DNA of 64,000 nt from positions 5,104-69,103 of the forward strand of contig PEWR01000061.1 in the NCBI GenBank assembly GCA_002779395.1, written 5' to 3'. Numbering within the stretch: the stretch's first letter is position 1; every line of letters begins with the position of its first letter. The notes beneath the pieces are model-generated. The model was not told the DNA's origin. It did no database searches and was given only the letters and a program-made list of their open reading frames with translations. Origin of the DNA: Ignavibacteriales bacterium CG07_land_8_20_14_0_80_59_12 (GTDB lineage Bacteria; Bacteroidota; Ignavibacteria; 0-14-0-80-59-12). A program made the translations under genes and the position numbers. Shown here piece after piece: positions 5,407-12,501 of this stretch.

Positions 5407-5649
5407 TTAGACCGTTTCGATGCCCGATTTCAGCGGAAGGAGAAGGGCGATGACAAAGGCAAGAATACCGAGCCCAAAGAAGACGTGGCCGATCCCGGCA
5501 TCGTGTTCAAGCAGGCCGAGAGTCCCAAGCATATAGGACCAGTCATGTGTTCCCTTCCCGAGGAGGGGTAGAACGTGCGCCCGTGCATCGGCGGCGTAGA
5601 CGCTGATGTTGATGAGGTTCTGACCGAGCCAGACGATGAAGACCTGCAT
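5407..5649 (-). CDS. Hypothetical small membrane protein (2 TM helices)
   Basis: The track ORF is 5407..5835, but only the C-terminal 80 aa from ATG 5649 (MQVFIVWLGQ... GLGILAFVIALLLPL) look protein-like. It lies 19 nt upstream of the binding-protein gene on the same strand. No homology is recognised. Confidence 0.3.
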   Translation of the reverse strand: MQVFIVWLGQNLINISVYAADARAHVLPLLGKGTHDWSYMLGTLGLLEHDAGIGHVFFGLGILAFVIALLLPLKSGIETV

Positions 5650-6212
5650 TCCGAACCGGTAGCCGTTCCTGAGGAAGTGAATCTTTTCCACATTTGCTGC
5701 GTAGTCAGTCAAGGGACTTGGCCAGCGTATGCCGCCGGATGGGATCAATGGCGAGCTCTCACGAGAGAACCGTTTGAGGGCCGCGGCGCTCGAACGCAGT
5801 GTTGAGAAATTACGCAGAAAACAGTAGAATAACAATCACTCCAGCCGCTGGATTCTCACGAGCTGTCGTGCCGCTTTTCTCGTCGTCTCCAGAGATCATC
5901 TTCATCCGCGTACACCAGCCCGTTCTCGTGTCGTCCGTGGTTCAATTCTTCTTCTCTGACACGCAGTTGCTTATATTGTGTGCATTGGCTCTCTTTGCCC
6001 CTCTCACACCGCACGAATATGGAGTCATGTGAATGGACAGGAATCGGATCTACCGCCACCTTGGCGAGTTCGAGCCCTTCAAGGACCTTGACGACCGGGA
6101 GCGCCGTCTCGTCGCCTGCAGCACGGAGGTGAAGCCAAGGAGTTTGAAGCCTTAAGCGGCCGCGATCGATTGTATACTCTGAGATGACACACTACAGGCG
6201 AGGCGAAAAACG

Positions 6213-6704
6213 ATGATGGACAAGCAACCGAATTCACGCATGTGCTTCATCTGCGGGCTGCAGAACCCGGTCGGTCTGAAGATGTCGATCTACAGCGACC
6301 CGGAAACGCGGCAGTCAACCTCCACTGTCACGATACCTGACCACTTCCGCGGATATCCCGGAGTAGTCCACGGCGGCATCATTGCGGCGATGCTCGATGA
6401 AGTCGCGGGGCGCGCGCTCCTCATCGACGGCGGCGACGACTATCTCATGGTCACCTTGAAGCTCGAAGTCAAGTACCGCCGTCCGACCCCCACGCTCACA
6501 CCGCTCACGATCGTCGGGAAGGTGACGCAGCCCGGCACCTCCCGGGCTGCCGTCCACGGTGAGATCCGCCTGCCCGACGGGACAGTCACTGCGGAGGCCG
6601 ATATCGTCCTCGCGCGAACGCCAGGGAGCGTCCGAGACCTGTGGGATGACGAGCGCGAGGACTGGAAGGTGTACCCGGACAACGAGGGGGCAGCCCCGAG
6701 TTGA
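6213..6704 (+). CDS. Hotdog-fold acyl-CoA thioesterase (PaaI/YbgC-like)
   Basis: CFICGxxNPxGL N-terminal motif and HGG catalytic region (YPGVVHGGIIAAMLDEVAG); 163 aa. Confidence 0.8.
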   Translation: MMDKQPNSRMCFICGLQNPVGLKMSIYSDPETRQSTSTVTIPDHFRGYPGVVHGGIIAAMLDEVAGRALLIDGGDDYLMVTLKLEVKYRRPTPTLTPLTIVGKVTQPGTSRAAVHGEIRLPDGTVTAEADIVLARTPGSVRDLWDDEREDWKVYPDNEGAAPS

Positions 6705-6787
6705 AGGGCTGCCGGCAGAACAACGAAATCCCGATGCCATTCGTCGTCCAGATGGAACACTTCATCATTTCTCCCTATTCTGATCTC

Positions 6788-6917
6788 CTAGAAGTCCGGC
6801 CGAAAACCCGCATGTCGACGGGAGTGTAGCATGAAGCTTGCGCCATTTCTTGAGCACACGTGATCTCAGAAGAAAAACAGGCGAATCCATGTTCAACCAG
6901 CGTGACGCTCAAGAGTC
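6788..6917 (+). mobile_element. Solo 130-bp left-end fragment of an IS5/IS1182-family element (copy 1). It includes the first 9 codons of the transposase, after which homology stops.
   Basis: It is about 97% identical (3 mismatches) to 9869..9998, where the same sequence continues into a transposase ORF. The shared string begins ctagaagtccggccgaaaacccgcatgtcgacggg and ends atgttcaacc[a/g]gcgtgacgctcaagagtc. Confidence 0.6.
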
Positions 6918-6939
6918 AAATAAGAGGTGAAAAGTCAAA

Positions 6940-6964
6940 CCCCCTCTCCATAGAGGAGAGGGGG
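6940..6964 (-). terminator. Probable intrinsic terminator for gene 6992..7570
   Basis: Perfect 10-bp GC-rich stem ccccctctcc/ggagaggggg with a 5-nt loop. On the minus strand it is followed by GTTTGACTTTTC. It lies 27 nt past the stop codon. Confidence 0.4.
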
Positions 6965-6991
6965 TTAAAGAACCTCTTCGGGGAGTGTGGT

Positions 6992-7570
6992 CTACCGCAC
7001 GTAGGCTAACTTCTTCACATTGGTGGATGTTCTGCTACTCACCTCAGATTTCGCCACCATACGATAGAAGTAAATCCCGCTGGCAACAGCCTCCGGCTTC
7101 CAATCAACTTTGTGAAAACCAGGTGGCTCAATCCCTTCAACGAGCGTTGCAACTTCTTCTCCAAGCACATTGTAGAGCTTGATGCTCACCTGAGATTCCT
7201 CAGGAAGTGCAAATTCAATCATAGTGCTCGGATTAAATGGATTCGGGTAGTTCTGCTCAAGCCGATACTCAGTAGGAAGCATCTCGCCCGGCTGCTCTGC
7301 TACACCTGTCAACAGATAGCGCTGCACGTGCCAGAAGCCGGCGATCTGCTTATTGGATGCATTGCTCGTTGTGCCGATGAATGGCTGTCCGAGCGTGCCA
7401 ACAAGCTTGTTGTCCCTGGAACTGAGTGAACCTCCTCCACTTCCAAAGACGCTCCGCGGGATGGCATACTGCCCTGATGCACTCTGGCAGAAGAGAAACA
7501 AGAAAACCACAATTCCTGCCGAAAAAATTGTCCCGCTAAAAGAAACGGGATTTTCAAGAAGATGTCTCAT
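6992..7570 (-). CDS. Small secreted protein with a T9SS C-terminal sorting domain (192 aa); cargo function unknown
   Basis: Signal peptide MRHLLENPVSFSGTIFSAGIVVFLFLFCQSASGQ. The last ~85 aa form a type-A Por secretion tail (NYPNPFNPSTMIEFALPEESQVSIKLYNVLGEEVATLV...GIYFYRMVA). GC is about 50% versus about 62% for the window. Confidence 0.8.
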   Translation of the reverse strand: MRHLLENPVSFSGTIFSAGIVVFLFLFCQSASGQYAIPRSVFGSGGGSLSSRDNKLVGTLGQPFIGTTSNASNKQIAGFWHVQRYLLTGVAEQPGEMLPTEYRLEQNYPNPFNPSTMIEFALPEESQVSIKLYNVLGEEVATLVEGIEPPGFHKVDWKPEAVASGIYFYRMVAKSEVSSRTSTNVKKLAYVR

Positions 7571-7583
7571 TTTTTTACCCTCC

Positions 7584-9617
7584 TCACTTTGCCTCTGGCT
7601 TTGCTTGCATCTTCTCTTGCTCAGCTTTCATCTTCTCTTGCTCAGCTTTCATCTTCTCTTGCTCAGCCCTCATCTGCTCCTCCATCTCGTGGTTCTTCTC
7701 ATAGTCTATACCCAACGTCTCTGATACGCCGTATTCCTTTGGATGGATGTACTTCCCTCGCTCCGCACCGGTTTTCTCCACCTCAACTTGAGCGGGATGC
7801 GCTTTAACATACGGGTCGTTACGGATGCCTGTGACCTGCCAGGAGACTCTCACGTTCGGTTTGTCAGTCTTGATTGAGAAGCGGTTGTTGTGAATTTCTT
7901 CACTCACGATTGCCTGAGCAAACTGTCCGATGACCGTTAATTGGTAGCGAAAGTCGCGGTTGAGGGCTTCGAAGTAGTCGGGTAGGGTGACCGTTGCCTC
8001 ACCATTAGCATCAGTAACGACGTTACCATTGTAGATATTCAGCACCTCATCCGACTCCACACAGAAATGGGCCAGGTACTTATTTGCCGGGTCGAGCGGA
8101 TGATCAATTTTGAATGACTTGTAGCCACCGACGTAGAGATGTCCTACGATCACCACATCGCCTTCGAAGTGGCCAGCGGGGGAGCTGCCGCTGCTCCAGC
8201 CATACACGGCGATGCCGGTGGTACTGTAGCCATATACGCCGTAGGGGTTGCCGGAGCCCCACACGCCGCAGTCACTCATGCCAAGGTATCCGAAGTTGCC
8301 GCTACTGCTGTAGCCATACACGCCATAGTCCGCGCCGTCGCCATACACGCCGTAGGTGCCGTGTCCATACACGCCGTAGCTTTGGCCGCCAAGGTATCCA
8401 TAGCGACCGCTCCCGTCGTTGCAGCCATACACGCCATACTCCCCGGCCTTGCCATACACGCCAGTGCTCCTGAAGCTCGTACCTCTGCCATAGACGCCGT
8501 AGCCGCTGTTGCTTTCGCCATACACGCCGTTGCCGCTGTTGTTGTAGCCATGCACGCCGTCGTTGCTGGTGCTTTCGCCATAGACGCCGTAGCCGCTGCC
8601 GCTGTAGCCATAGACGCCGTAGCCGCTGTTGCTGTAGCCAAACACGCCATCGTTGCTGTTGCTTTCGCCATACACGCCGTAGCCGCTGCCGCTGTAGCCA
8701 AACACGCCTTCGCCGCTGCTGCCAAGCCATCCGTAGTTGCCGCTGGTGCTGTGTATGCCAGACACGCCGGAGACGTAACCGCCAAGGTATCCGTAGCTGT
8801 CGCTAGTGCTGTTGTAGCCTTTCACGCCGGCGCCGCTGCCGGAATTTGTAGCAAAGATAATTGAATTTGGAGAAGCAGAGCTGCCGCTGAGTGAAAGAGG
8901 AACCCTCACGTTCAACGTCACATCACCAGTCGTTCCTCCACCGGATAAGCCTGTACCGGCAGTGACCCCAGTGATGTCGCCGCCAGCTCCGCCTGGGGTT
9001 GTGGCAATGGTCAAGGTGTTACCCAACGGGGTGATGCTTACGTTGGACCCTGCCTGCAGCGTGACGTTGTCGTGCAAGCTGTTCAGGCTCTTGACCACCT
9101 CTCCAGAGGCAATCTTGGTGCTGTCCACAGCACCATCGGCAATCTTCGCTGAGGTAACTGCATTGTTGTTAATACTTGGATTTGGATATCTCCCTGTTAA
9201 ATCACCGCCAGCTGTAATACCATTGATGCTGTCTGTGTTTGCAGCACGGAAGCTGTAGCCAGAGCCTGTCAACTGCATTCTCGGCGTAAGTTCCGTACCA
9301 GCTCCAACTGTTACTTCAAGCCAGTACGGCTTGTTAAAGGGCAGGTTTAATGTATCTACGCTCCCTAAGTTCACGCTGAATATCCCTTTGCTGACTGCAA
9401 CTGATTGTACCTCTTGCCATAGCGGCGTACCGCCTGTGGTAACGTCGTAGAGCTTGAAGGTGAGGCTGTAGTTACCATCAGGTACAGCCGTGCCGCTGGC
9501 ATCTGTCAAGATCCCCTGGTAGCTGATCGTCTTGGGAATTTGTGCAAGGCTCAATGGTGCAAGAAGAAGCACCATCAGTGCGATGGACAAGAATGTCCAA
9601 CGTAGAGTTGTGTTCAT
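7584..9617 (-). CDS. Gly/Tyr-rich repeat fibre-like secreted protein (677 aa). It has a signal peptide, an N-terminal beta domain, GYGVYG decapeptide repeats, a conserved C-terminal domain and a heptad coiled-coil tail.
   Basis: AAGGAGG RBS. Signal peptide MNTTLRWTFLSIALMVLLLAPLSLAQ. N-terminal domain ISYQGILTDASGTAVPDGNYSLTFKLYD. Central region has ~15 copies of the GYGVYG core across residues ~260-470, of which 8 are regular 30-bp units. C-terminal domain KSFKIDHPLDPANKYLAHFCVESDEVLNIYNGNVVTDANGEATVTLPDYFEALNRDFRYQLTVIG. Tail MRAEQEKMKAEQEKMKAEQEKMQAKPEAK. There is no T9SS C-terminal domain. Confidence 0.85.
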   Translation of the reverse strand: MNTTLRWTFLSIALMVLLLAPLSLAQIPKTISYQGILTDASGTAVPDGNYSLTFKLYDVTTGGTPLWQEVQSVAVSKGIFSVNLGSVDTLNLPFNKPYWLEVTVGAGTELTPRMQLTGSGYSFRAANTDSINGITAGGDLTGRYPNPSINNNAVTSAKIADGAVDSTKIASGEVVKSLNSLHDNVTLQAGSNVSITPLGNTLTIATTPGGAGGDITGVTAGTGLSGGGTTGDVTLNVRVPLSLSGSSASPNSIIFATNSGSGAGVKGYNSTSDSYGYLGGYVSGVSGIHSTSGNYGWLGSSGEGVFGYSGSGYGVYGESNSNDGVFGYSNSGYGVYGYSGSGYGVYGESTSNDGVHGYNNSGNGVYGESNSGYGVYGRGTSFRSTGVYGKAGEYGVYGCNDGSGRYGYLGGQSYGVYGHGTYGVYGDGADYGVYGYSSSGNFGYLGMSDCGVWGSGNPYGVYGYSTTGIAVYGWSSGSSPAGHFEGDVVIVGHLYVGGYKSFKIDHPLDPANKYLAHFCVESDEVLNIYNGNVVTDANGEATVTLPDYFEALNRDFRYQLTVIGQFAQAIVSEEIHNNRFSIKTDKPNVRVSWQVTGIRNDPYVKAHPAQVEVEKTGAERGKYIHPKEYGVSETLGIDYEKNHEMEEQMRAEQEKMKAEQEKMKAEQEKMQAKPEAK
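7603..7686. repeat. 21-bp tandem repeat, about 3.5 copies, encoding AEQEKMK heptads at the C-terminus of the fibre protein
   Basis: gcttgcatcttctcttgctca / gctttcatcttctcttgctca (twice) / a degenerate 4th unit. The period of 21 bp equals 7 aa. Confidence 0.8.
8482..8751. repeat. 30-bp imperfect tandem repeat, 8 regular units from 8512 with a degenerate copy upstream, encoding (S/N)SGYGVYGES decapeptides inside the fibre gene
   Basis: Units such as GCCATAGACGCCGTAGCCGCTGTTGCTTTC recur with 2-6 substitutions each. Antisense ORFs in the track (8139..8864, 8276..8785, 8302..8730) are artefacts of this repeat. Confidence 0.8.
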
Positions 9618-9868
9618 GGTACTACCTCCTTGTTTTGTTTGTTATGATGGTTTGTTTCCTAACGTGCAAAAGACGTTGGGCTGTTGACTGTCCCGCTGAA
9701 AAGAACGGGATTTTTCAATCTGTGCACATCTATGTTTACCCCTTTCCTTGTAGGAGAGGGTAGGGTGAGGTCATGAAATGCCTGGCTCATTGCTGCAACT
9801 GTTTCCTTCTGCATCCGCTTATTTACTGTTATATATAGTAGGAATTTGCTTCAGCTGCAAAAGATAAT

Positions 9869-10430
9869 CTAGAAGTCCGGCCGAAAACCCGCATGTCGAC
9901 GGGAGTGTGGCATGAAGCTTGCGCCATTTCTTGAGCACACGTGATCTCGGAAGAAAAACAGGCGAATCCATGTTCAACCGGCGTGACGCTCAAGAGTCTC
10001 TTCTCAATTCTGACAGTCAGTTTCTCAAAACTGTGGGTCGAGACACGTTCTATGGATTTCTCTCTGAGCATCGGCACGGGATCTTCCGTGACGACGACTT
10101 CGGATTTCTCTACTGCCGGAACAACGGCCGCCCGTCGGTCCCGCCGAGCATCTTAGCTCTCTCACTTCTCCTGCAGATCTACAACAAGGTCTCGGACGAC
10201 GAGGCGGCGCGCCGTGCCCACTTCGATCTCCAGTGGCAGGTCGCGCTCGGGATCCCCGTCGGTTCGCAAACGTTCGTCAAGAGCACGTTGCAGATGTTCC
10301 CTTCGCAACTCATTCTCCATGAGACAGCGCGCGACATTTTCATGAAGTCGATTGGCAACCACCTAACTGTCCGGAAGGCTGTGACACGGTACAACGCCGA
10401 GAATGCTCTCCGCCTCACCGATCAGGCTGT
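9869..10430 (+). mobile_element. Truncated IS5/IS1182-family element (copy 2): left end plus the N-terminal ~150 codons of the transposase. The 3' boundary is approximate.
   Basis: The first 130 bp duplicate 6788..6917. The encoded N-terminus contains the InsH-type DUF772 motif FLYCRNNGRPSVPPSILALSLLLQIYNKVSDDEAARRAHFDLQWQVALGI. There is no DDE catalytic region. The ORF runs into the oppositely oriented gene at 10435. Confidence 0.6.
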
Positions 10431-10506
10431 TCTGTCATTTCACCAAGGTCATCTTCTGAATCTTCGAGAACGACCCTCCCGTTATCTGATAGAAGTAGAG
10501 ACCTGA
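9970..10506 (+). pseudogene. Transposase N-terminal fragment (IS5/IS1182 family), truncated
   Basis: The true start is most likely MFNRRDAQESLL at 9970; the track ORF 9919..10506 starts at an upstream in-frame codon. Only ~150-180 aa of the expected ~450 are present, and the tail is probably read-through into antisense of the neighbouring gene. Confidence 0.55.
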
Positions 10507-10740
10507 GGAAAACCCTGAGGCGTCGAACAGAACCGCATGCATCCCGGGCGAGAGCGTCTCATCCACCAGCTTGGTGATTTCCCGGCCCATCGAGTCGAAA
10601 ACCCTCAGCACGACGTGTTCTGACTGTGGCAATTCAAAGCTTATCATGGTGTTTGGATTGAAGGGATTTGGAGAGAGGTGAAGCTTGCCCCTGTTGCGCC
10701 CGAATCGGATGTACGGCAATGGCGGCAAAACAGAAGGCAA
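10435..10740 (-). pseudogene. Orphan T9SS C-terminal sorting domain, a remnant of a decayed secreted-protein gene
   Basis: The track ORF begins at a TTG. Only the last ~80 aa are domain-like (SPNPFNPNTMISFELPQSEHVVLRVFDSMGREITKLVDETLSPGMHAVLFDASGFSSGLYFYQI). An ATG-initiated signal-peptide ORF (MRILSGIAVAFCFAAIAV...) lies in another frame at 10723-10765. The upstream PQQ gene is in the third frame. Confidence 0.5.
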
Positions 10741-10787
10741 CCGCGATACCGGACAAGATTCTCATTGTTTCCCCCTTTCTTGTTTGT

Positions 10788-12041
10788 TCATTTGATCGCG
10801 TATACGTGGTGACCGGGATTGTTGGAGCTCACATATATTCTCCCGTTACCGCTGATTGCCGGCGGAGAATCGATATTGGGGATCCAACCGCCCAGACCTC
10901 CCGCGAGATACATCTGAAACTTCATCGTGCCATCTGGATTCAGAGCAATGAAGTTGGTTGAATCGGCTGGATTCCCGTATGGTCTGCGAGAGTGAGTGAG
11001 TCCAAAGTAGATTGTCCCATCCACGTCAATGGCTGGTATGCAGTCAGAAAGTGCAGGAAGTGGGTATTTCCACTTCAGTCTGCCTGCGTAGTCGATCGCA
11101 TACAAATCCAAACACGTGATAACATAGATCGTGCCGTCCCATCCGATGATGGGCCCGATGCCCAACCCTGTCCAGGGCACTCCAGGGAGTCGCCACCGCA
11201 GCACGCCCGATTGGTCGAACGAGCATAATTCATCCGCTCCGGCACAGAAGTAGACATTGCCGTCGTTGTCAACTGCAGGCGCCGATGGTACTTTTCTGCA
11301 AGTCAACCTCAAATGACCGCTCGTGTCCACAGCATAAAGCGCGTGGCCACCAGGGACATAGAGTAATGTGCCATCCGGGCTCATCGCCGGTGAGTATTGA
11401 ACGGAGTCACTGTCGGGCTTCCACTTCCAGTGTAGTGTCCCATCCCTTCGGATAGCGTATAGTGAACCTACCGCAAGATAGACTGTTCCCCCATCTTTCG
11501 AGATTACCGGCGAACTGAAGCTCGCATTCCCTACCACAGGGAATCTCCATTTCAGAAAACCACCACGGTCATAAGCAAACAGGTACCGTTGCCAGTTGTC
11601 ATAACCGTCCACGTGCACATTCCCATCAGCAGCGACCAACGCCGAGCCGTCTCCTGCAGTGGATTTGCTCCACTTTAACTGACCATCTGCTCCTATGGCG
11701 AGGAAATCCGGAGAAAAAGAACTGACGCGCACGTAGATTGTCCCGTTTTCATCAATCACCGGGGATGAGAATACCCCACCGCCAGCGAAAAACGTCCACT
11801 CGACTTTCCCCTCTTGCGGACCGCGGTACGGGCTCCTTCCGGTATGCTGCGCATCATGGAGGAACATTGGCCAGGGGGAATTGGCTAACCCCGGCCAGGA
11901 GATCTCATGTTGTTGCTTGGTTAGAAAATGCGCGGTGTCCGGCGGCGCAACTAGTTGGCTGTTCTTCCTACATGACGCGGAGAAGAGAGCGAAGGACAGG
12001 ATGAGAACTGATCCCACAAATGCTGCAAGTGCGCTTCGCAT
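10788..12041 (-). CDS. PQQ-like beta-propeller repeat lipoprotein (BamB-like fold)
   Basis: AGGAGG RBS. Lipoprotein signal LILSFALFSASC. Repeated xDGTIY(V/F) blades recur throughout (DENGTIYV, DGNVHV, DGGTVYLAV, DGTLLYV, DGNVYF, DGTIYV, NGRIYV). GC is about 52%. Confidence 0.8.
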   Translation of the reverse strand: MRSALAAFVGSVLILSFALFSASCRKNSQLVAPPDTAHFLTKQQHEISWPGLANSPWPMFLHDAQHTGRSPYRGPQEGKVEWTFFAGGGVFSSPVIDENGTIYVRVSSFSPDFLAIGADGQLKWSKSTAGDGSALVAADGNVHVDGYDNWQRYLFAYDRGGFLKWRFPVVGNASFSSPVISKDGGTVYLAVGSLYAIRRDGTLHWKWKPDSDSVQYSPAMSPDGTLLYVPGGHALYAVDTSGHLRLTCRKVPSAPAVDNDGNVYFCAGADELCSFDQSGVLRWRLPGVPWTGLGIGPIIGWDGTIYVITCLDLYAIDYAGRLKWKYPLPALSDCIPAIDVDGTIYFGLTHSRRPYGNPADSTNFIALNPDGTMKFQMYLAGGLGGWIPNIDSPPAISGNGRIYVSSNNPGHHVYAIK

Positions 12042-12501
12042 CTTTAACCTCCTGTATATCGTGACACTCTATTATCGGAGAGATGAGTATGCAAGCAGAA
12101 GCGTTCGCACCTCTCTCCCGAAAACGTCGAAGACCTTCAAGACGACCGGCTCCTTCACCGGGATCTTGAACTCGATCAGGGTCGATGCGCCCCGGAAGCT
12201 GGATCGGAGGATTCGGAGTGAGGTAGACGTAGTTGTCGTTCGGTTCATTCCGGTAAGCGTACCGGTATTCGAGCCGACCGCACGTTCGCCCGCGGAACGC
12301 GTTCATGTCGGAGATCGAGAACCTTGTCGCCAGGGTGTCGATGTTCAATCCACTCATGCTCCACTCCGCGGGCGAGGAGAAGTCCTGCATGAGATAGCTT
12401 CCAGCCGGTGCGACAACCTTCACGGTGGCGGTGTCCGATACGCCTCCGTAGCGGCACACAACGATTGCCTCGCCGCTCCGTTGCCCGCCGTGACGGGGAC
12501 C

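What the first reader, a model, noticed from the sequence alone, without database searches (positions are those of the whole stretch)
10435..10790. Decayed gene: the T9SS sorting domain, a signal peptide and the PQQ-propeller gene are all in three different frames
The PQQ-propeller ORF stops at 10788-10790 (frame A). A short ATG ORF encoding a signal peptide, MRILSGIAVAFCFAAIAVHPIRAQQ, starts at 10765 (frame B). The T9SS tail (NPFNPNTMISFEL...) is in frame C, open only from 10752 downward. The 3' end of this remnant abuts the truncated IS. No single indel restores a fusion because frame A closes before frame C opens. This looks like a small signal-peptide-plus-tail gene, similar to 6992-7570, that has suffered at least one frameshift. 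Alternatively it is the tail of a larger cargo protein truncated by IS insertion, or there is a sequencing error in the GGGGG homopolymer at 10766-10770.
Basis: seen in the sequence. Interest (0 to 1): 0.5.

Follow-up and report, generated by a model that had tools for sequence, protein, structure and literature searches.

The report
Dead remnant of a secreted-protein gene
This is the broken leftover of a gene for a secreted protein: its export signal and its secretion tag survive in different reading frames and the working middle part is gone, which is ordinary gene decay and not a sequencing error.

Summary
On the minus strand the propeller gene stops at 10790-10788. A Shine-Dalgarno-like AGGGGG precedes an ATG at 10765, which opens a 43-codon signal-peptide ORF (frame B). 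A complete type A T9SS sorting domain lies in frame B+1 (about 10683-10435). It scores 33.8 bits on PF18962 (cut-off 27) and 35.8 bits on TIGR04183 (cut-off 23). Its stop codon touches the truncated end of an IS1182-family fragment (9869-10434).

Deleting any one base in 10636-10764 reopens an ATG-to-stop ORF. Only a change within about 10677-10697, for example one G of the GGGG run at 10688-10691, keeps both modules. The 109-aa product would carry no cargo at all.

The sequence is identical in seven independent assemblies. A sister haplotype about 1% diverged has the same frameshift and the same IS junction, so this is inherited, not an error. No intact version exists in the public protein collections searched. 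Relatives carry signal-cargo-tail genes, or their wrecks, at this position. A second cargo-gene relic lies on the other side of the propeller gene.

Verdict: an ordinary, fixed pseudogene relic. Interest is low.

The parts
10788..12041 (-). Intact neighbouring gene for a 417-aa PQQ/BamB-like beta-propeller lipoprotein (frame A). It is not part of the remnant.
   Evidence: Pfam PQQ_2 gives 46.7 bits. The lipobox Cys24 is invariant and the C-terminus ends Y[AK]I[KR]* (FEVK* in L020), with no sorting domain in any of the five orthologues. GGAGG lies upstream of the ATG at 12041.
10771..10776 (-). Shine-Dalgarno-like AGGGGG, 5 nt upstream of the ATG at 10765.
   Evidence: Read directly from the sequence. 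Other genes in the window use GGAGG-type sites at similar spacing.
10634..10765 (-). Frame B ORF of 43 codons. The first 23 codons (10765-10697) form a Sec-type signal peptide, MR / ILSGIAVAFCFAAIAV / HPIRA, with a predicted cut before QQ. The rest is out-of-frame read-through of the tail.
   Evidence: Translation. The uncharged 16-residue h-region has a mean Kyte-Doolittle value of 2.6. No signal-peptide predictor was available, so the assignment rests on sequence features.
10677..10697 (-). Interval that must contain the frame change, either a deletion junction or an indel. It includes the GGGG run at 10688-10691.
   Evidence: The signal peptide ends at 10697. Homology to sorting domains begins at frame C residues 20-23, which is 10683-10672. 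Removing one G gives the 109-aa ORF.
10435..10683 (-). Complete type A T9SS C-terminal sorting domain in frame C (= B+1), including its TGA stop at 10437-10435.
   Evidence: PF18962 gives 33.8 bits against a cut-off of 27. TIGR04183 gives 35.8 bits against 23. There are 226,776 representative proteins with E<=1e-3. In the 150 best-scoring, which are the ones listed, the match covers only this stretch and, in most, lies at the protein's own C-terminus.
9869..10434 (+). 5' fragment of an IS1182-family element, comprising the left end, about 100 nt of leader and the first ~155 transposase codons. There is no DDE domain. Its truncated end touches the tail's stop codon.
   Evidence: NF033551 profile positions 5-123 of 488 and DUF772. 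Alignment to homologues runs, with a 9-aa gap, to about residue 155 of the ORF that starts at 9970.
6788..6917 (+). Second, shorter copy of the same IS left end (130 nt, 98% identical to 9869-9998), in direct orientation. It lies downstream of the intact 192-aa T9SS gene.
   Evidence: with the sequences.

Best explanation

The gene once had the standard layout: ribosome-binding site, Sec signal peptide, cargo domain(s), then a type A C-terminal sorting domain. It sat immediately downstream of the propeller lipoprotein gene, as in related genomes. An internal deletion whose length was not a multiple of three removed essentially all of the cargo. This left the signal peptide (frame B) and the complete sorting domain (frame B+1) side by side, with the junction somewhere in 10677-10697.

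Translation from the ATG at 10765 now yields a 43-aa peptide that ends at 10634. The sorting domain has no signal peptide of its own, so it cannot reach the periplasm. A separate deletion removed the right-hand three quarters of an IS1182-family element and brought its interior up against the stop codon of the tail.

Shown: the three frames, the identity of the modules, that the sequence is real, and that the state is shared by two haplotypes.

Inferred: that one out-of-frame deletion caused it, and that the lost cargo gene was the neighbour seen in relatives.
For: **The sequence is real and the state is inherited.**
- L001-L007, from seven samples and three pipelines, are 100% identical over the site.
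- L031 has flanks 98-100% identical, differs at only 5 nt inside the remnant, and carries the same frameshift and the same IS junction.
- All cluster members are the frameshifted form, and the repaired 109-aa sequence is absent from the collection of about 15 billion proteins.
- No other protein shares the signal peptide.

**The modules are what they seem.**
- The sorting domain is complete and scores above the curated cut-offs.
- In the 150 best-scoring homologues, homology starts only at frame C residue ~20-23. The stretch of frame C that overlaps the signal-peptide codons aligns in none of them.

**No cargo remains.**
- At most about 7 codons separate the signal-peptide cleavage site from the start of the sorting domain.
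- The twelve hits inspected, nine of them among the shortest in the list of 150, include no natural signal-plus-tail-only protein; all but P0011, a complete small protein with its own cargo domain, are fragments without a signal peptide.

**Position in relatives.** The gene directly after the orthologous propeller gene is a signal-bearing secreted protein.
- L039: 386 aa, intact, with a sorting domain (PF18962 44.4 bits).
- L010: 459 aa, with a sorting domain.
- L038: 485-residue open frame, cut at its 5' end, ending in a sorting domain.

**The same slot decays independently elsewhere.**
- L009/L032 keep only about the last 140 codons.
- L033/L034 have a frameshift in a T7 run and further breaks.

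**A second relic in the window.** A second T9SS-cargo relic lies on the other side of the propeller gene at 12072-12459.

**No sign of recoding.** The RNA fold has z = +1.11, and there are no Rfam matches.
Against: - No intact ancestor or orthologue with this signal peptide was found, so the deletion is inferred, not observed.
- The tail is no more similar to the tails of the syntenic genes (41-46% identity) than to unrelated ones (up to about 60%). Orthology with the neighbour genes of relatives therefore rests on position alone.
- The excision is very tidy, with both end points within a few codons of the domain borders. That is unlikely for a random deletion, and leaves room for a two-step history through an in-frame signal-plus-tail gene.
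- There are too few substitutions between the two haplotypes (5 nt) to test for relaxed selection.
Confidence: 0.75

Rival explanations
1. A recently inactivated minigene. A small gene encoding only a signal peptide fused directly to a sorting domain (109 aa) existed in frame, and was knocked out by a one-base insertion in the GGG(G) run at 10688-10691.
For: - Removing one G restores exactly such an ORF, with both modules intact and a good ribosome-binding site.
- The tidy domain borders would be explained if the in-frame fusion had once been under selection.
- The sorting domain still scores like functional ones.
Against: - It needs two events, cargo loss and then a frameshift, where one suffices.
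- No signal-plus-tail-only protein was seen among the twelve hits inspected, drawn from the 150 best listed of 226,776 homologues. The short ones are fragments.
- After the tail is cleaved, such a product would be only a few residues long. That rests on established knowledge of type A sorting-domain processing.
Confidence: 0.17
2. A functional gene expressed by recoding or phase variation. Either a +1 ribosomal frameshift, or slipped-strand changes in the G run, would switch synthesis of a signal-plus-tail peptide on and off.
For: - The frames differ by exactly +1, with a short G run at the only place where a shift keeps both modules.
- Genes in the same slot in relatives also carry frame disruptions.
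Against: - G4 is far shorter than known contingency tracts.
- There is no length variation in at least 22 contigs or between two haplotypes.
- There is no zero-frame stop or rare codon at the site, and no stimulatory RNA structure (z = +1.11).
- The shifts in relatives differ in direction and position. L009 is -1 and is really a 5' deletion. L033 has additional breaks.
Confidence: 0.03
3. The sorting domain was once the C-terminus of the propeller protein and became separated from it.
For: - The tail follows the propeller gene on the same strand, about 100 nt away.
- In L009 the tail is in the propeller's frame, separated from it only by two TAG codons.
Against: - All five orthologous propellers end at the same place, with Y[AK]I[KR]* in four and FEVK* in L020, and with an invariant lipobox cysteine. 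They are complete lipoproteins without tails.
- A ribosome-binding site, an ATG and a signal peptide lie between the two.
- In L009 the stretch before the tail aligns weakly to the C-terminal part of the separate downstream protein of L038.
Confidence: 0.02
4. A sequencing or assembly artefact, or truncation of a larger cargo gene by IS insertion. These are the reader's two alternatives.
For: Homopolymers are present, and an IS fragment is adjacent.
Against: - The sequence is identical in seven independent assemblies and is conserved in a diverged haplotype.
- The IS touches the stop-codon end of the tail with an internal IS position, so it cannot have removed the cargo, which lay on the 5' side.
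Confidence: 0.02

Closest known systems
Type A T9SS substrates: Sec signal peptide, cargo, and a C-terminal sorting domain of PF18962 / TIGR04183 type
   Same: - It has a complete C-terminal sorting domain scoring above the curated thresholds and ending at a stop codon.
- It has a Sec-type signal peptide with a ribosome-binding site at the 5' end.
- It lies in a neighbourhood of other T9SS cargo genes.
[quoted passage not shown]
   Different: - The signal peptide and the sorting domain are in different reading frames.
- There is no cargo between them.
- It therefore cannot be made or secreted as a T9SS substrate.
The 192-aa T9SS gene in the same window (6992-7570), with relatives such as P0011 (171 aa)
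   Same: - It is a small minus-strand gene with a signal peptide and a type A sorting domain.
- An IS left-end fragment lies downstream of it.
   Different: - That gene is intact and has a mature domain of about 80 aa (GSGGG...AGFW motif) shared with P0011.
- Its tail is only 38% identical to the remnant's.
- The remnant is therefore not a decayed copy of it.
Decayed downstream genes in orthologous loci (L009/L032, L033/L034)
   Same: - They occupy the same position after the orthologous propeller gene.
- They are T9SS-type secreted-protein genes reduced to fragments or broken by frameshifts.
   Different: - The lesions differ. L009 has lost the 5' ~345 codons but keeps about 60 codons before the tail. 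L033 keeps the N-terminal domain.
- The events are therefore independent, not shared ancestry of the break.
IS1182-family insertion sequences
   Same: The fragment at 9869-10434 encodes the N-terminal DUF772 region of such a transposase, and shares a 130-nt left end with a second copy at 6788-6917.
   Different: - Only about one third of the element is present.
- There is no DDE catalytic domain and no right end.
- It is an immobile fossil.

Membership tests
Type A T9SS substrate (PF18962 / TIGR04183 sorting-domain protein) | Match to the sorting-domain profile above the curated cut-off | tested here: met
   PF18962 gives 33.8 bits against 27, covering profile positions 3-73 of 75. TIGR04183 gives 35.8 bits against 23, covering 2-69 of 72.
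Type A T9SS substrate (PF18962 / TIGR04183 sorting-domain protein) | Sorting domain at the extreme C-terminus of the ORF | tested here: met
   The domain ends ...KMTLVK, followed directly by TGA at 10437-10435.
Type A T9SS substrate (PF18962 / TIGR04183 sorting-domain protein) | N-terminal Sec signal peptide in the same reading frame | tested here: not met
   The signal peptide is in frame B and the tail in frame B+1. Frame C has a TGA at 10764-10762 and no signal peptide of its own.
Type A T9SS substrate (PF18962 / TIGR04183 sorting-domain protein) | A cargo (mature) domain between the signal peptide and the sorting domain | tested here: not met
   At most about 7 codons lie between the predicted cleavage site (10697) and the first residue homologous to sorting domains (10683-10672).
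Type A T9SS substrate (PF18962 / TIGR04183 sorting-domain protein) | T9SS machinery (PorV, Sov/SprA, PorU and others) encoded in the genome | not tested
   Only the intact 192-aa sorting-domain gene in the window was seen. The machinery genes were not looked for.
IS1182-family insertion sequence | Full-length DDE transposase (NF033551 at or above 270 bits) | tested here: not met
   62.2 bits, covering profile positions 5-123 of 488 only. There is no DDE domain.
IS1182-family insertion sequence | Two terminal inverted repeats with a target-site duplication | tested here: not met
   Only a left end is present (9869, shared with 6788). No inverted repeats were found in 5500-12500.
Programmed ribosomal frameshift gene | A shift-prone site with a stimulatory element, conserved across homologues | tested here: not met
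   There is no structure (z = +1.11) and no Rfam element. Lesions in relatives differ in position and direction.
Phase-variable (contingency) gene | A long homopolymer or repeat tract whose length varies between isolates or reads | tested here: not met
   The tract is only G4. It is identical in seven assemblies, in at least 22 contigs and in two haplotypes. Read-level variation is not testable with these tools.

The most novel reading that the evidence does not exclude
The locus encodes a deliberately cargo-less signal-peptide-plus-sorting-domain peptide. This might be a decoy or regulator that engages the T9SS translocon or PorV. Its synthesis would be gated by a rare +1 shift or by G-tract slippage at 10688-10691. 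The tidy retention of exactly the two targeting modules, and their survival in two haplotypes, would then reflect function rather than chance.
Probability: 0.03. Interest if true: 0.45.

Novelty: already known. Interest (0 to 1): 0.1.

Why it matters
It matters little beyond annotation.

- The 97-aa 'hypothetical protein' in the public record of this Ignavibacteriales MAG (PIU45438.1, COS95_03585) should be flagged as a pseudogene fragment, not counted as a T9SS substrate.
- The locus illustrates how T9SS cargo genes around a conserved propeller lipoprotein gene turn over by deletion and IS activity in this lineage.
- Only if the minigene or recoding reading were true would it bear on T9SS biology.

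Tried and rejected
- **Search for an intact ancestor.**
  - The word-index search with the repaired 109-aa protein found only the remnant itself and one 40%-identical tail.
  - The search with the 43-aa signal ORF found only itself.
- **Orthology of the tail by similarity.** This was uninformative. The tail is 41-46% identical to the tails of the syntenic genes, and up to about 60% identical to unrelated ones.
- **The full-length IS in variant L003 as a template for the truncated IS.** It is unrelated in sequence.
- **A shared frameshift direction across lineages as a hint of recoding.** I rejected this after re-indexing. L009 is -1 and is really a 5' deletion. L033 is +1 in a T7 run but has further breaks.
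- **Terminator, promoter, RNA-fold and Rfam scans.** These found nothing of note.
- **dN/dS between haplotypes.** This was not attempted, because there are only 5 differences.
- **Failed call.** The first genome contigs call failed on the server and was repeated.

Full report
**What is in the sequence**

On the minus strand, the 417-aa propeller ORF (12041..10788) ends ...HVYAIK-TGA at 10790-10788.

Twenty-two bases further on lies an ATG at 10765. It is preceded by AAAGGGGGAAACA, an AGGGGG Shine-Dalgarno-like site with 5-nt spacing. Other genes in the window use GGAGG-type sites in the same way.

The ATG opens MRILSGIAVAFCFAAIAVHPIRAQQ..., a textbook Sec signal peptide. It has a basic N-terminus, a 16-residue uncharged core (mean Kyte-Doolittle value 2.6) and I-R-A before the likely cut. 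This frame (B) then runs into GQASPLSKSLQSKHHDKL and stops at 10636-10634.

Frame C (= B+1) is closed by a TGA at 10764-10762. From 10761 it reads ...GKLHLSPNPFNPNTMISFELPQSEHVVLRVFDSMGREITKLVDE...KIQKMTLVK-TGA, with the stop at 10437-10435.

Two of its coordinates are off:
- Frame C opens at 10761, not 10752.
- The G5 run is at 10771-10775, not 10766-10770. It sits in the ribosome-binding site, outside both ORFs, so it cannot be the cause.

**Identity of the pieces**

*The tail.* It is a complete type A T9SS sorting domain.
- PF18962 gives 33.8 bits against a gathering score of 27, covering profile positions 3-73 of 75.
- TIGR04183 gives 35.8 bits against 23.
- An exhaustive HMMER search of 1.84 billion representative proteins found 226,776 hits at E<=1e-3.
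- In the 150 best-scoring hits, the match covers only residues ~20/23-101 of the frame C ORF. In most of them it lies at the extreme C-terminus, in proteins of 108-2295 aa.
- The first ~19 residues of frame C overlap the signal-peptide codons. They align in none of the listed hits except one that starts at residue 6 (a few more start at 17-19). This supports frame B as the coding frame there.

*The neighbour on the + strand.* ORF 9919-10506 is the N-terminal part of an IS1182-family transposase.
- It matches NF033551 profile positions 5-123 of 488 at 62 bits, against a cut-off of 270, and Pfam DUF772.
- Aligned to homologues, the similarity continues to about residue 155 of the ORF that starts at 9970, which is about nt 10434. 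It is degraded and has a 9-residue gap.
- An internal point of the IS is therefore joined directly to the stop codon of the tail.

*A second IS copy.* A 130-nt copy of the same IS left end lies at 6788-6917. It is 98% identical and in the same orientation, just beyond the terminator hairpin of the intact 192-aa T9SS gene.

**Can it be repaired?**

Any single-base deletion between 10636 and 10764 gives one uninterrupted ORF from the ATG to the tail's stop. No single-base insertion does.

Only changes within about 10677-10697 keep both the signal peptide and the sorting domain intact. That interval contains a GGGG run at 10688-10691. Removing one G gives MRILSGIAVAFCFAAIAVHPIRAQQGKLHLSPNPFNPNT...KMTLVK, 109 aa.

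At most about seven codons lie between the cleavage site and the sorting domain. The 192-aa gene at 6992-7570 is different. It has a mature domain of about 80 aa that it shares with database relatives such as P0011, and its tail is only 38% identical to the remnant's.

**Not an error, and not polymorphic**

- The exact propeller protein is encoded on 14 public contigs. Eight were retrieved, from ENA, JGI and Logan assemblies of different samples. Seven of them span the frameshift, and all seven are 100% identical to the window there.
- L031 is a sister haplotype. The esterase gene and the remnant/IS region are 98-100% identical to the window. It differs from the window at 5 positions within the remnant, and it has the same frame arrangement and the same IS junction.
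- The protein cluster of the tail ORF holds six variants on at least 22 contigs. These are two haplotypes under different gene calls of 70, 94 and 97 aa. Every call long enough to reach upstream of the NPFNP motif shows the frameshifted upstream sequence.
- The repaired 109-aa sequence is not in the collection of about 15 billion proteins.
- No other protein shares the signal peptide.
- One source names the organism as Ignavibacteriales bacterium CG07_land_8_20_14_0_80_59_12.

**Comparative context**

Orthologous propeller genes at 42-52% amino-acid identity were found in other Bacteroidota/Ignavibacteria MAGs and metagenomes.

All five aligned propellers have an invariant lipobox cysteine and stop at the same place, ending Y[AK]I[KR]* in four and FEVK* in L020. 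None carries a sorting domain. The tail therefore never belonged to the propeller.

The gene immediately downstream is a separate secreted protein with its own signal peptide:
- L039: an intact 386-aa protein ending in a sorting domain (PF18962 44.4 bits).
- L038: a 485-residue open frame (cut at its 5' end) from the same 'YRDA[DE]YEDGNG' family, ending in a sorting domain.
- L037: the same family, cut by the contig end.
- L011: a shorter version of the same family.
- L010: a different 459-aa cargo with a sorting domain.

The same slot has decayed independently elsewhere:
- L009/L032 retain only about the last 140 codons. The sorting-domain part of that stretch aligns clearly to residues 345-485 of the L038 protein, and the ~57 residues before it align only weakly.
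- L033/L034 carry a +1 shift in a T7 run inside the signal peptide, plus later breaks.

In the window itself, the 460-nt gap on the other side of the propeller gene (12042-12501) holds a second wreck:
- One piece is 33% identical to an internal domain of an 825-aa T9SS protein.
- In another frame there is the first half of a sorting domain, STLIEFKIPVKEPVVLKVFDVFGREVRTLL, 57-63% identical to the matching halves of intact tails.

In this lineage the propeller gene is thus flanked by two dead T9SS cargo genes.

**Most likely history and mechanism**

The simplest account is as follows.
1. A standard signal-cargo-tail gene lay downstream of the propeller gene.
2. One internal deletion, not a multiple of three in length, removed the cargo and put the two surviving ends out of frame.
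3. Separately, a deletion removed most of a nearby IS1182-family element up to the tail's stop codon.

Today, ribosomes starting at 10765 would make a 43-aa peptide. The sorting domain is untranslated, or, if translated from an internal start, it lacks a signal peptide and stays in the cytoplasm. T9SS substrates need both a Sec signal peptide and the CTD (PMC12618676, abstract).

I rate 'dead, inherited relic' at about 0.9 overall. This is the best explanation (0.75) plus the inactivated-minigene rival (0.17). The specific one-step deletion story is weaker: I put it at about 0.55, rather than the full 0.75 entered as the confidence of that explanation. The alternative is a two-step route through an in-frame 109-aa minigene that was later hit by a one-base insertion in the G run.

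The unusually tidy excision slightly favours the two-step route. Parsimony, the absence of any natural signal-plus-tail-only homologue among the hits inspected, and the lack of any plausible product after tail cleavage count against it.

**Recoding or phase variation**

- A G4 tract is too short to be a contingency tract.
- It does not vary in any assembly.
- There is no zero-frame stop or hungry codon at the site.
- The RNA around it folds no better than shuffled sequence (z = +1.11).
- Rfam finds nothing.
- The disruptions in relatives differ in position and direction.

I give this reading about 3%.

**Verdict**

It is a decayed gene and a one-base change joins the frames. It is not a sequencing error, it was not truncated by the IS, and it is not a copy of the 192-aa gene type. 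This is ordinary gene decay in an IS-rich, cargo-gene-rich neighbourhood, and its interest is low.

Noticed in passing
window 12042-12501 (minus strand), especially 12072-12459: A second T9SS cargo-gene relic lies between the esterase and propeller genes. One frame is 33% identical over 87 aa to residues 550-632 of an 825-aa T9SS protein (P0147). Another frame holds the first half of a sorting domain (STLIEFKIPVKEPVVLKVFDVFGREVRTLL, 57-63% identical to intact tails), then a stop. Pfam gives no hit because the piece is too short. In the sister haplotype L031 this intergenic stretch is replaced by a shorter, unalignable one.
   Followed up: partly
window 10869-11810 compared with L031: The interior of the propeller gene is only 52-91% identical per 100 nt to L031, with indels, and about 76% identical at the amino-acid level. 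Both flanks are 98-100% identical. This pattern suggests allelic replacement by recombination, or strong diversification of this surface lipoprotein.
   Followed up: partly
window 6788-6917 and 9869-9998: Two direct copies (98%) of the same IS1182-family left end, both truncated on their right side, bracket a 2.95-kb segment carrying the 677-aa and 192-aa genes. In both cases the truncated end faces the 3' end of a minus-strand sorting-domain gene. How this arrangement arose was not worked out.
   Followed up: partly
L003 2596-4407 (corresponds to window left of 9831): One population variant (JGI 3300025837) diverges from the window at 9831. There it carries a different, full-length IS with a 476-aa transposase (DUF772 + DDE_Tnp_1), unrelated in sequence to the truncated fragment. 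This is a structural polymorphism at the locus.
   Followed up: partly
window 7584-9617 (minus strand): This 677-aa secreted protein has no Pfam domain. It has a long run of 30-nt-period Gly/Tyr-rich repeats (GYGVYG...) and a C-terminal 21-nt-period EQEKMKA repeat. Its N-terminus matches the Bdellovibrio 'mosaic adhesive trimer' fibre N-domain weakly (NF053851, 28.8 bits against a cut-off of 60).
   Followed up: no
window 7529-7554 / 9689-9714 and 6941-6962 / 9739-9760: Two short repeat pairs were found. One is 26 nt at 88% (TGTCCCGCTnAAAGAACGGGATTTT, hairpin-like). The other is 22 nt at 82% (CCCCTCTCC...GGAGAGGG, terminator-like). Both occur near the 192-aa gene and again, close together, upstream of the 677-aa gene. 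They may be recurring terminator or leader elements, or chance matches.
   Followed up: no
L033 5282-5400 and L034 (same sequence); L009 7255-7695 and L032: The gene downstream of the orthologous propeller is also broken in other lineages. L033/L034 have a +1 shift in a T7 run inside the signal peptide, plus later breaks. L009/L032 have a 5'-deleted remnant whose tail lies in the propeller's frame behind two TAG codons.
   Followed up: partly
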